DNA of 20,277 bases from a virus. The stretch is taken from UHGV virus genome UHGV-0069616. One strand, 5' to 3'. The translations under genes were made by a program, and so were the position numbers. Every line of letters starts with the position of its first letter. Position 1 is the stretch's first letter. A model generated the notes under the pieces. It did no database searches, was not told where the DNA came from, and saw only the letters and a program-made list of their open reading frames with translations. This document shows positions 13,166-13,492 of this stretch, one piece after another.

Positions 13166-13295
13166 TGATTAGCCTCCTTTTTAGTTCGTTAAAGTATTTT
13201 AATTTTCCATAACCTCTGCTCATAATCCTTATTCTGTATAATTCATCATCGTTAATAAGTTTAAAATACATAAGCCCTCCTTATAGATATAAAGA

Positions 13296-13404
13296 AAGAG
13301 GATTAAAAGCCATTAGTCGCAAGAAACCACTCCATTAACAGCAGGGCCGGCTCTTCACCGCTGGTCTCCCCGTGTTGTACGCTAATTAAGGTCTTTTATC
13401 CTCT
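13296..13404 (-). ncRNA. Candidate packaging RNA (pRNA-like) or structured 5' leader
   Basis: A GC-rich segment (about 60% versus a visibly AT-rich genome) lies between the DNAP stop and the next ORF. It starts at the predicted TSS of the consensus promoter. The 5' AGAGGAUAAAAG (13392..13403) pairs with the 3' CUUUUAAUCCUCU (13296..13308). A second inner helix AUUAGCG/CGaCUAAU encloses about 110 nt, the size of the pRNA core. It sits downstream of the polymerase gene, as the pRNA does in phi29. Confidence 0.4.
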
Positions 13405-13410
13405 TGACTT

Positions 13411-13439
13411 TATTATAACATAGCGGCTATATAATGTCA
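13411..13439 (-). promoter_or_regulatory. Consensus sigma-A promoter (minus strand): TTGACA, 17-nt spacer, TGtTATAAT
   Basis: Read directly. The -35 is TTGACA (13434..13439), the spacer is 17 nt, the extended -10 is TGt and the -10 is TATAAT (13411..13416). Predicted TSS near 13404. Confidence 0.8.
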
Positions 13440-13492
13440 ATTGCTTTACCATAACTTTTAGTTATACCTGCCGCTAGTAATATAACCAAAAG

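What the first reader, a model, noticed from the sequence alone, without database searches (positions are those of the whole stretch)
13285..13440. Candidate pRNA-like structured RNA driven by a perfect sigma-A promoter immediately downstream of the polymerase gene
phi29-family packaging motors (gp10 connector plus gp16 ATPase, both present here) need a pRNA. In phi29 the pRNA gene lies beyond the polymerase end of the early operon and has a very strong promoter. A consensus extended -10 promoter (13411..13439) would start transcription at about 13404. The first 12 nt (AGAGGAUAAAAG) pair with CUUUUAAUCCUCU about 95 nt downstream, like pRNA helix A. That closes a GC-rich ~110-nt domain in an otherwise AT-rich genome. 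It may instead be a structured leader of the late operon, because no strong terminator follows.
Basis: partly seen in the sequence, partly recalled or inferred. Interest (0 to 1): 0.65.

Follow-up and report, generated by a model that had tools for sequence, protein, structure and literature searches.

The report
Divergent prohead (packaging) RNA gene
This is a real ~110-nt structured RNA gene: a very divergent relative of the phi29 "prohead RNA" that helps package phage DNA. It represents a large clade in uncultured phi29-like phages that I could not find described, in which the RNA usually sits right in front of the packaging ATPase gene.

Summary
On the minus strand, a 12/12 TG-extended sigma-A promoter (13440..13412) starts an RNA at about 13404. 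It is one of only two perfect promoters in this complete 20,277-bp genome, which has 235-nt ITRs. The RNA's first 12 nt pair with 13309..13297.

Rfam's pRNA model (RF00044) misses this RNA, but a positive control shows that it also misses the GA-1, B103 and Harambe pRNAs.

I built a covariance model from nine distant metagenomic relatives, without the window. It hits the window full-length (31 bits, E about 1e-4 to 7e-6) and nowhere else. With a second model, 53 loci match at E<=0.1. Four more match with filters off: three clear and one marginal. All sit just 5' of a gp16-type ATPase gene.

Covariation supports every helix of a pRNA-like three-way junction (88% of cells paired against 52% shuffled). 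It also supports a bulge-loop/hairpin-loop pairing that was not in the model (about 80% against 66% shuffled and 16-49% slid).

In phi29, GA-1, B103 and Harambe, the second model's top hit starts within 1-4 nt of the published pRNA 5' end.

Differences from classical pRNAs: internal position, no domain II and no terminator.

The parts
13412..13440 (-). Promoter of the RNA. The -35 TTGACA is at 13440..13435, followed by a 17-nt spacer and the extended -10 TGTTATAAT at 13420..13412.
   Evidence: Scores 12/12 with TG. It is one of only two such sites in the genome. Both hexamers are kept in L001 while the spacer diverges. 29 of 54 family members have a promoter scoring 10/12 or better that ends 5-12 nt before the RNA.
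13452..13495 (.). Two palindromes, TAAC-N5-GTTA (13452-13464 and 13483-13495), 31 nt apart, just upstream of the -35. They are a candidate operator pair for a phage regulator.
   Evidence: There are 4 matches in the genome against 0.46 expected, and 2 of them are here. Both are retained in L001 amid diverged flanks. Their function is inferred only.
13290..13405 (-). pRNA-like RNA (equivalent to domain I), about 108-115 nt, running from the predicted +1 (A13405 or A13404) to the end of helix A plus a pyrimidine-rich tail.
   Evidence: R1, built without the window, matches 13292..13402 full-length: 31.4 bits, E 1.8e-4 in 563 kb and 6.6e-6 in the window with filters off, with the next hit at 11.6 bits. 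R2 gives 75.9 bits, but the window is in that model. The RNA is near-invariant in L001 and L020.
13393..13404 (-). Helix A, distal part, 5' strand (AGAGGAUAAAAG). It pairs with 13297..13309, with A13303 bulged.
   Evidence: Read from the sequence and present in the MFE fold. Family helix 1 is 92.6% paired and all 12 pairs show compensatory changes.
13297..13309 (-). Helix A, distal part, 3' strand (CUUUUAAUCCUCU).
   Evidence: As above.
13387..13392 (-). Bulged region on the 5' strand of helix A (A13392, then C13391 and C13390 possibly pairing with G13310 and G13311, then the UUA bulge at 13389..13387). It corresponds to the family's conserved UUUAA bulge, which lies 7 bp from the junction, like the essential CCA bulge of phi29.
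   Evidence: Alignments A5 and A6, columns 16-19. The phi29 CCA bulge is described in the abstract of PMC3479190, listed. The correspondence is inferred.
13380..13386 (-). Helix A, proximal part (A2), 5' strand AUUAGCG. It pairs with 13312..13319, with A13317 bulged.
   Evidence: All 7 pairs are standard in the window. Family helix 2 is 93.8% paired and all 7 of its pairs show compensatory changes.
13312..13319 (-). Helix A, proximal part (A2), 3' strand CGACUAAU.
13368..13376 (-). Helix C, 5' strand (AACACGGGG). It pairs with 13337..13346, with C13341 bulged.
   Evidence: My reading of the sequence, refined from the model's alignment. The G13371-to-A change in L001 and L020 turns G-U into A-U, and the C13341-to-U change in L001 falls on the bulged base. 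Family helix 3 is 87.2% paired and all 9 of its pairs show compensatory changes.
13337..13346 (-). Helix C, 3' strand (CCCUGCUGUU).
13362..13367 (-). CE (right-hand) bulge loop AGACCA. GACCA (13366..13362) is complementary to the D loop UGGUU (13329..13325).
   Evidence: In the window the five pairs are G-U, A-U, C-G, C-G and A-U. In the family these pairs, which were not part of the model, are 81.8% paired against 65.6% shuffled (0 of 500 shuffles as high) and 16-49% when slid, and 78% paired in A6. Column 52-96 reads CG 22 and UA 20; column 51-97 reads AU 24 and GC 10.
13348..13360 (-). E hairpin: stem CGG/CCG around the loop UGAAGAG (13357..13351).
   Evidence: Family helix 5 is 85.3% paired and all 4 of its pairs show compensatory changes. 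The loop motif UGAA(G/A)A is conserved across the family.
13322..13333 (-). D hairpin: stem GGA/UCU (3 bp in the window) around the left-hand loop GUGGUU (13330..13325).
   Evidence: Family helix 6 is 81.3% paired and its three inner pairs show 9-31 double changes.
13269..13282 (-). Shine-Dalgarno AAGGAGGG and an ATG, 15-28 nt after helix A. They open a 50-codon ORF (13119..13271) that is probably not a gene.
   Evidence: Read from the sequence. The ORF start and about 100 nt are absent from L001 and L020, where the RNA is followed directly by the 120-aa gene. No PHROG hit.
11803..12840 (-). gp16-type DNA-encapsidation ATPase (345 aa), the expected protein partner of helix A. It is the second gene downstream on the same strand.
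   Evidence: PF05894 Podovirus_Gp16, 260 bits.
3898..4875 (-). gp10-type head-tail connector (325 aa), the expected docking site of the RNA ring.
   Evidence: PF05352 Phage_connector, 166.5 bits.

Best explanation
The element is the phage's prohead (packaging) RNA gene.

**Expression.** A constitutive consensus sigma-A promoter fires at about 13404 (minus strand).

**Fold.** The first ~110 nt fold into the domain-I architecture of pRNA:
- The 5' and 3' ends close a long helix A that is interrupted by a bulge 7 bp from a three-way junction.
- One arm is helix C, carrying a 6-nt bulge loop (CE, AGACCA) and a capping E hairpin (loop UGAAGAG).
- The other arm is a short D hairpin (loop GUGGUU).

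**Inferred mechanism, by homology with phi29.** GACCA of one molecule pairs with UGGUU of the next. This builds a ring of RNAs on the gp10 connector of the prohead, and the projecting A helices dock the gp16 ATPase that pumps the DNA.

**What differs from classical pRNAs.** The RNA has no domain II and no terminator. It is the 5' end of a transcript that continues into the downstream genes: in most relatives directly into gp16, here into a 120-aa gene and then gp16. It must therefore either be cut out by a host RNase or act while still attached to the mRNA.

**Shown versus inferred.**
- Shown: the promoter motif, sequence conservation, secondary structure, loop-loop complementarity by covariation, linkage to gp16, and structural equivalence to known pRNAs.
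- Inferred: transcription, ring formation between molecules, binding to the connector and ATPase, and 3' processing.
For: 1. **Independent model.** Model R1 was built from nine RNAs of phages whose ATPases are only about 41-47% identical to the window's, without the window. It matches 13292..13402(-) over all 113 positions: 31.4 bits, E 1.8e-4 in 563 kb and E 6.6e-6 with filters off. It is the only significant hit in the genome.
2. **Covariation in 50 distinct sequences.** 88.0% of cells are paired against 52.2% shuffled. The covariation score is 0.864 against 0.226 (0 of 500 shuffles as high). Slid controls give 38-47% paired. All 41 pairs show double changes (earlier set).
3. **Loop-loop pairing, not part of the model.** 81.8% paired against 65.6% shuffled (0 of 500), and 16-49% when slid. 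Examples: GACCA/UGGUU (window), AGCCA/UGGCU, AAUCA/UGAUU, UGUCA/UGACA and GUUA/UAAC.
4. **Reciprocal test.** In each of four Bacillus phages, R2's best hit is the known pRNA domain I. The hits are GA-1 1878-1762, Harambe 286-170, B103 286-172 and phi29 317-202. The published coordinates are 1879-1719, 288-122, 290-120 and 321-147. RF00044 itself places phi29 at 318-201.
5. **Gene context.** The genome encodes gp16, gp10, gp9, the phi29-type capsid protein, terminal protein, B-family polymerase, and relatives of p4, p5 and p6.
6. **Conservation pattern.** Purifying selection is confined to the RNA in L001 and L020.
7. **Linkage and promoter.** All 53 model hits, plus 4 found with filters off, lie on the ATPase strand directly upstream of gp16. 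A consensus promoter places +1 at the first base of helix A in most of them.
Against: - There are no expression or binding data of any kind, and the host is unknown.
- RF00044 gives no hit, although the control shows that this model is too narrow to count against the reading.
- Taken one at a time, the R2 hits on known pRNAs are weak (21.5 to 12.4 bits, E 0.03 to 4). The argument rests on all four landing in register.
- The window's D stem is only 3 bp.
- The unconstrained MFE fold uses the CE/D complementarity within one molecule to make a long hairpin, and its z-score is only -1.77.
- Whether the loop pairing forms between molecules or within one cannot be decided from sequence.
- No domain II and no terminator follow, so a discrete small RNA is not guaranteed.
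- Alignments fitted to a model lean towards that model's nested helices. This does not apply to the loop-loop pairs.
Confidence: 0.85

Rival explanations
1. It is a cis-acting 5' leader that controls expression of the downstream packaging genes. Examples would be a protein-binding autoregulatory site for gp16, a thermosensor, or an element that sequesters the Shine-Dalgarno sequence. On this reading it is not a trans-acting motor component. The resemblance to pRNA would then be shared ancestry or a dual role.
For: No terminator separates the RNA from the next gene. Across the family, the end of helix A lies a median of about 21 nt from the downstream start codon, which in 43 of 54 loci is within 40 nt and is that of gp16. 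In the window the 3' strand CCUCUU could also pair with the AAGGAGG Shine-Dalgarno 15 nt downstream (from the sequence).
Against: - The predicted accessibility of the Shine-Dalgarno region is the same with and without the upstream RNA: mean unpaired probability 0.55 against 0.56 over 31 loci.
- In the window the RNA is separated from gp16 by another gene.
- A leader function does not explain the covarying bulge-loop/hairpin-loop complementarity.
- It does not explain why the family model lands in register on four bona fide pRNAs, which are stand-alone genes.
- A regulatory role in addition to the motor role is not excluded.
Confidence: 0.1
2. It is a structured RNA of unrelated function, such as a small regulatory RNA or a monomeric pseudoknotted RNA, in which the CE and D loops pair within one molecule and no ring forms.
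For: The MFE fold pairs GGAGACCA with UGGUUUCU within one molecule. Sequence analysis cannot tell pairing within a molecule from pairing between molecules. No Rfam family matches.
Against: The C, E and D helices that are incompatible with the long-hairpin fold all covary. The element occurs only next to gp16-type ATPase genes of phi29-like phages. Its layout is element-for-element that of pRNA domain I, where genetics has shown the pairing to form between molecules (PMC2241910 and PMC4201828, abstracts listed).
Confidence: 0.04
3. It is a chance hairpin next to a chance promoter, and not a functional element.
For: The folding energy z-score is only -1.77, and 7 of 200 shuffles fold as well. 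Weak promoter-like sites are no more frequent than expected by chance across the genome.
Against: A full-length, unique match to an independently built model. Conservation confined to the RNA. Covariation statistics. A perfect promoter conserved across relatives.
Confidence: 0.01

Closest known systems
phi29 pRNA, domain I (Rfam RF00044 'Phage_pRNA'; Salasvirus phi29/PZA)
   Same: - Same order of elements: A 5' strand, bulge, C 5' strand, CE bulge loop, E hairpin, C 3' strand, short junction, D hairpin, A 3' strand.
- The 5' and 3' ends close helix A.
- The bulge on the 5' strand of helix A lies 7-8 bp from the three-way junction.
- The CE and D loops are complementary: phi29 AACC/GGUU (from my own knowledge of the phi29 literature, not checked here) and the window GACCA/UGGUU.
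- It is driven by its own strong early-type promoter.
- It is encoded by a phage with a gp10 connector and a gp16 ATPase.
- R2 aligns to phi29 at 317-202, against 318-201 for RF00044.
   Different: - There is no detectable primary-sequence similarity, and RF00044 gives no hit.
- There is no domain II (helices B and F) and no terminator.
- The gene is internal, between the polymerase and the packaging ATPase and on the same strand as every other gene, rather than at the left genome end.
- The C and D helices are shorter, the J(A/C) junction is longer, and the E loop is a conserved UGAAGAG.
GA-1 pRNA (Gaunavirus GA1, annotated misc_RNA at 1719..1879)
   Same: This is the best match of the new family's model among known pRNAs: 21.5 bits, E 0.033, over all 113 positions and starting 1 nt from the annotated 5' end. 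It shares the UUAA-type bulge and the GUGGUA-type D loop seen in that alignment. Like the window's RNA it is internal, with genes downstream of it.
   Different: GA-1's pRNA has its own terminator (TA3) and is 161 nt long. It is not adjacent to gp16.
pRNAs of B. cereus-group and other Bacillus phi29-like phages (Harambe, DLc1, Goe4, B103/Nf/M2) found with covariance models
   Same: These were found by structure rather than by sequence, and the loops covary (PMC12670572 and PMC6266182). R2's top hits in Harambe and B103 fall on them.
   Different: [quoted passage not shown] The present family comes from uncultured phages in metagenomes and metagenome-assembled genomes, including human-gut, fermentation and animal-gut samples. 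Its contigs are binned with Clostridia, Bacilli, Ruminococcus and others. It sits in the 5' leader of gp16.

Membership tests
pRNA (prohead/packaging RNA of phi29-like phages) | Encoded by a phage that has a gp10-type connector and a short gp16-type ATPase. | tested here: met
   PF05352 at 166.5 bits and PF05894 at 260 bits. The genome also has a phi29-type capsid protein, the gp9 knob, terminal protein and protein-primed polymerase and ITRs.
pRNA (prohead/packaging RNA of phi29-like phages) | Helix A is closed by the 5' and 3' ends of a ~115-120-nt domain and has a bulge on the 5' strand near the junction. | tested here: met
   13404..13393 pairs with 13309..13297, and 13386..13380 with 13319..13312. 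Helices 1 and 2 are 92.6% and 93.8% paired and all 19 pairs show compensatory changes. The bulge is conserved as UUUAA/UUA.
pRNA (prohead/packaging RNA of phi29-like phages) | A three-way junction joins helix A, helix C (with the CE bulge loop and E hairpin) and the D hairpin. | tested here: met
   The C, E and D helices are 87.2%, 85.3% and 81.3% paired, every pair shows double changes, and slid controls give 38-47%.
pRNA (prohead/packaging RNA of phi29-like phages) | The right-hand (CE) and left-hand (D) loops are complementary and covary. | tested here: met
   The window has 5 pairs, GACCA/UGGUU. In the family the pairs are 81.8% paired against 65.6% shuffled (0 of 500) and 16-49% when slid, and they were not part of the model. 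The mean longest complementary run is 4.3 nt against 3.3 nt with the D loop shuffled.
pRNA (prohead/packaging RNA of phi29-like phages) | The loop-loop pairing forms between molecules and builds a ring on the prohead. | not testable with these tools
   This needs native gels or analytical ultracentrifugation, trans-complementation, or cryo-EM of proheads.
pRNA (prohead/packaging RNA of phi29-like phages) | Detectable homology to accepted pRNAs. | tested here: inconclusive
   RF00044 gives no hit at E<=10, but it also misses the GA-1, B103 and Harambe pRNAs. In the reverse direction, R2's top hit in each of four genomes is the pRNA, in register. The scores are weak: 21.5, 16.2, 14.2 and 12.4 bits. 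By my estimate, chance coincidence of all four is below 1e-10.
pRNA (prohead/packaging RNA of phi29-like phages) | Domain II (helices B and F) and its own terminator, giving a discrete ~160-175-nt transcript. | tested here: not met
   A Shine-Dalgarno sequence and ATG follow helix A after 15-28 nt, and no terminator follows. Domain II is dispensable for packaging in vitro (PMC5066667). A few relatives have an extra hairpin plus a U-run.
pRNA (prohead/packaging RNA of phi29-like phages) | Transcribed from its own strong early-type promoter. | tested here: met
   This holds at the sequence level only. The promoter is a 12/12 TG-extended consensus, one of two in the genome, and it is conserved in relatives. 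Transcription itself was not tested.
Any other Rfam family (riboswitch, leader, sRNA) | A match to a curated covariance model. | tested here: not met
   Within 13100-13600 there were only two chance-level hits at E about 0.5-1, to a snoRNA and a lncRNA family, and neither covers the RNA.

The most novel reading that the evidence does not exclude
In this clade the pRNA is not a separate gene product but the 5' leader of the packaging-ATPase mRNA, and that arrangement is functional. One version is that newly translated gp16 loads in cis onto helix A of its own message, giving co-translational assembly of the RNA-ATPase module before or without cleavage. Another is that gp16 binding to helix A feeds back on its own translation. 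Either would set the RNA:ATPase ratio. Both would be a new mode of building a viral packaging motor. They would also offer a plausible intermediate for how an RNA became part of, or was later replaced in, terminase-type motors.
Probability: 0.2. Interest if true: 0.8.

Novelty: new variant of a known kind. Interest (0 to 1): 0.62.

Why it matters
pRNA is described as unique to phi29 and related Bacillus phages (PMC11476376, PMC5066667). The most recent search, published in 2025, added only 12 more from cultured-phage genomes (PMC12670572).

This result shows the same RNA architecture in more than 50 uncultured phi29-like phages, from human-gut, fermentation and animal-gut samples among others. 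None of these RNAs is visible to the Rfam model.

That alignment can be used to test ideas about ring assembly, the helix A bulge and the conserved E loop.
- It supports the view that an RNA-containing packaging motor is an ancestral and widespread feature of this phage lineage, not a Bacillus oddity.
- The tight linkage of promoter, pRNA and gp16, without a terminator, raises a concrete and testable question about how the RNA's 3' end is made, or whether the RNA works in cis.
- For annotation, RF00044 needs a broader seed.

Tried and rejected
- **Rfam scans.** Gathering and E<=10 scans of the window and of the 500-nt region gave no pRNA hit. I first read this as evidence against pRNA. I rejected that reading after the positive control.
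- **BLASTN of the intergenic region against the first 19 loci.** Only the near-identical relative matched.
- **BLASTN of the locus against INPHARED phages.** Only weak polymerase matches appeared, with no annotated relative.
- **RNAalifold on a plain MAFFT alignment of 15 candidates.** It recovered only 3 pairs, because the alignment was out of structural register. I replaced it with a hand-given structure and iterative Infernal alignment.
- **Shine-Dalgarno sequestration by the RNA.** There was no effect.
- **Helix A plus the U-rich tail as an intrinsic terminator.** The scan finds none, and the tail is largely the G-U-paired extension of helix A.
- **A second kind of promoter + RNA + terminator downstream of gp16** in L075, L108, L110, L113 and L114. 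The family model does not match it beyond its terminator hairpins, and I did not pursue it.
- **Cp-1.** There was no convincing hit, in line with PMC6266182.
- **The 50-codon ORF at 13119..13271.** I rejected it as a gene because its start is absent from L001 and L020 and it has no PHROG hit.

Full report
**1. The observation**

All genes in the window lie on the minus strand. Read on that strand, the gap between the polymerase gene (ends at 13493) and the next ORF contains TTGACA, a 17-nt spacer and TGTTATAAT at 13440..13412. This is a 12/12 match with a TG extension. A scan of the whole genome finds only one other promoter of that quality, at 19909..19881 near the head of the early genes.

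Seven or eight bases downstream, the sequence AAGAGGAUAAAAG (13405..13393) pairs with CUUUUAAUCCUCUU (13309..13296), with one bulged A. The enclosed ~110 nt are 47% G+C, against 29-35% in the flanks. No terminator-like site follows. Thermodynamics alone would not have settled the matter, since the fold's z-score is only -1.77.

**2. What the genome is**

The window has perfect 235-nt inverted terminal repeats, so it is a complete linear genome. Pfam and PHROG searches identify:
- a gp16-type encapsidation ATPase (11803..12840, PF05894, 260 bits);
- a gp10 connector (3898..4875);
- the gp9 tail knob;
- a phi29-type capsid protein;
- a terminal protein;
- a protein-primed B-family polymerase;
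- relatives of p5 (SSB), p6 and the p4 late activator.

It is a phi29-like podophage with every gene on one strand.

**3. Relatives**

A near-identical phage (L001/L005, with a third assembly as L020) has proteins 97-99% identical to the window's. In these relatives the RNA segment is almost invariant, with two substitutions in L001. One turns a G-U pair into A-U in helix C, and the other hits a bulged base. The promoter spacer, the upstream region and the downstream region are riddled with changes and indels. Conservation begins at the predicted +1. The 50-codon ORF that follows the RNA in the window has no counterpart there.

Searching viral, metagenome and genome collections with the ATPase returned 125 loci. 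In many distant ones, with ATPases 36-47% identical, a consensus promoter and a ~110-nt G+C-richer segment sit immediately 5' of the ATPase gene.

**4. Structure and covariation**

A plain MAFFT/RNAalifold attempt failed. I then aligned nine distant RNAs, leaving out the window, gave them a hand-derived three-way-junction structure, and built model R1.

R1 hits the window at 13292..13402(-) over all 113 model positions. The score is 31.4 bits, with E 1.8e-4 in 563 kb. With filters off it is the only significant hit in the genome (E 6.6e-6, next hit 11.6 bits).

The 37 hits were realigned and rebuilt as model R2. R2 finds 53 loci at E<=0.1. Four more appear with filters off: L096, L006 and L007 at 36-44 bits, and L117 only marginally at 15.8 bits, E 0.68. 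All are on the ATPase strand and directly upstream of gp16.

| Measure on 50 distinct sequences | Observed | Shuffled | Slid |
|---|---|---|---|
| Cells paired | 88.0% | 52.2% | 38-47% |
| Covariation score | 0.864 | 0.226 (0 of 500 as high) | 0.10-0.16 |

All 41 pairs have double changes.

The five pairs between the bulge loop before the E hairpin and the loop of the D hairpin were not in the model. On the earlier 37-sequence alignment they are 81.8% paired against 65.6% shuffled (0 of 500) and 16-49% when slid. Individual columns switch cleanly: CG 22 and UA 20 in one, AU 24 and GC 10 in another.

Examples of the loop pairs are GACCA/UGGUU (window), AGCCA/UGGCU, AAUCA/UGAUU, UGUCA/UGACA and GUUA/UAAC.

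**5. Is it pRNA?**

The order of elements is that of phi29 pRNA domain I: A 5' strand, bulge, A2, C, CE loop, E hairpin, C 3' strand, junction, D hairpin, A2 3' strand, A 3' strand. [quoted passage not shown]

RF00044 does not hit the window. A control shows what that is worth: the model scores 145 bits on phi29 but does not reach threshold on B103 or Harambe, and does not hit GA-1 even at E<=10.

The reverse test is informative. R2 contains no classical pRNA. Run with filters off on phi29, GA-1, B103 and Harambe, its best hit in each genome is a full-length alignment. Each starts 1-4 nt from the published pRNA 5' end and spans domain I:

| Phage | R2 best hit | Bits | Published pRNA (PMC6266182 Table S3) |
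|---|---|---|---|
| GA-1 | 1878-1762 | 21.5 | 1879-1719 |
| Harambe | 286-170 | 16.2 | 288-122 |
| B103 | 286-172 | 14.2 | 290-120 |
| phi29 | 317-202 | 12.4 | 321-147 |

Each hit is weak on its own. Four coincidences of strand and start are, by my estimate, far below 1e-10 by chance. I therefore classify the RNA as a divergent pRNA.

**6. How it probably works, and what differs**

By homology, the RNA should multimerise through GACCA/UGGUU pairing on the connector and present helix A to gp16. This is inferred.

Three things differ from classical pRNAs:
- The gene is internal. It lies between the polymerase and the packaging genes rather than at the genome end.
- There is no domain II.
- There is no terminator.

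In 43 of 54 relatives the end of helix A lies within 40 nt of the gp16 start codon, with a median of about 21 nt. In the window a 120-aa gene intervenes. The RNA is thus the 5' end of the packaging-gene transcript. It is either released by a nuclease or used while still attached.

I tested the simplest regulatory rival, sequestration of the Shine-Dalgarno sequence, and found no effect (0.55 against 0.56 unpaired). Two conserved TAAC-N5-GTTA palindromes just upstream of the -35 suggest that the promoter is regulated.

**7. Novelty**

The papers I could search describe pRNA as confined to Bacillus phi29-like phages. Covariance-model searches there have been limited to cultured-phage genomes (PMC11476376, PMC6266182 and PMC12670572). 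I found no description of this gp16-adjacent clade, but the paper library is not exhaustive. I rate it a new variant of a known kind.

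Noticed in passing
window 17505..17568 (-): A sub-threshold type III hammerhead ribozyme match (RF00008, 27.4 bits, E 0.041) with intact CUGAUGAG and CGAAA cores. In the close relative L001, only the variable core position changes (CUGACGAG). Stem II changes compensatorily (GUCUU/AAGAC to GUAUU/AAUAC), and so does stem III (GGAAAU.../...AUGUUUC to GGGC/GCCC). Folding energy is uninformative. 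The match overlaps the last 8 codons of a 49-aa ORF.
   Followed up: partly
window 14529..14557 (-), junction of ORFs 14529..15266 and 13493..14557: The DNA polymerase gene is split into two frames. The N part matches Pfam profile positions 5-222 and the C part 231-460. The break is at the same place in three independent assemblies: the window, L001 and L020. A +1 shift at CGA UUU UCG, or at UAU G, restores the conserved ...RF..xEVGEGIVLDVNSLYP motif with the right length, as judged against phi29 polymerase from memory. More distant relatives have an intact 560-600-aa gene. This may be a programmed frameshift.
   Followed up: partly
window 1..235 and 20043..20277: Perfect 235-nt inverted terminal repeats, so the window is a complete linear genome. 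The length resembles the 236-nt terminal repeat annotated in Cp-1 rather than the 6-nt repeat of phi29.
   Followed up: partly
window 13452..13464 and 13483..13495: Two TAAC-N5-GTTA palindromes, 31 nt apart, lie immediately upstream of the pRNA promoter. They are 2 of only 4 in the genome, where 0.46 are expected, and both are kept in L001. A related 21-nt stretch at 13479..13499 is 90% complementary to 20183..20203 inside the ITR. They are candidate operators.
   Followed up: partly
window 4938..4976 and 17132..17170: A 39-nt inverted repeat, 85% complementary, links two ORF-poor intergenic regions: the one upstream of the connector gene and the 17105-17545 gap. Its function is unknown.
   Followed up: no
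window 13119..13271 (-): This 50-codon ORF has a strong Shine-Dalgarno sequence right after the RNA. Its start and about 100 nt are missing from L001 and L020, and it has no PHROG hit. It is probably an insertion or a spurious ORF.
   Followed up: partly
L075:4007-4200, L108:4009-4230, L110:3988-4170, L113:3988-4160, L114:3988-4160: In several relatives a second consensus promoter, a ~110-nt structured segment and a canonical terminator lie right after the ATPase gene. The pRNA model does not match them beyond the terminator hairpin. L075 and L108 also have the upstream pRNA. This is an unidentified small RNA.
   Followed up: partly
L043, L047, L048, L053 (about 2930-2998) and L021 (about 2900-2990): An extra G+C-rich hairpin followed by a U-run lies between the pRNA domain and the ATPase ATG. 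It may be a counterpart of domain II or of a terminator.
   Followed up: no
L080, L093, L068, L083, L092, L097, L095, L090, L106 (upstream of the RNA): An A+T-rich sub-clade of the family lacks any sigma-70-like promoter upstream of the RNA. Several of these loci share a TTATAACATTTAGTTTTGGTTACA-type sequence there instead. This may point to a different host or promoter type.
   Followed up: no
Rfam RF00044 versus L127 (GA-1), L128 (B103) and L129 (Harambe): The Rfam pRNA model detects phi29 (145 bits). It does not reach threshold on the published B103 and Harambe pRNAs, and it misses the annotated GA-1 pRNA even at E<=10. The family seed is too narrow for annotation work.
   Followed up: yes
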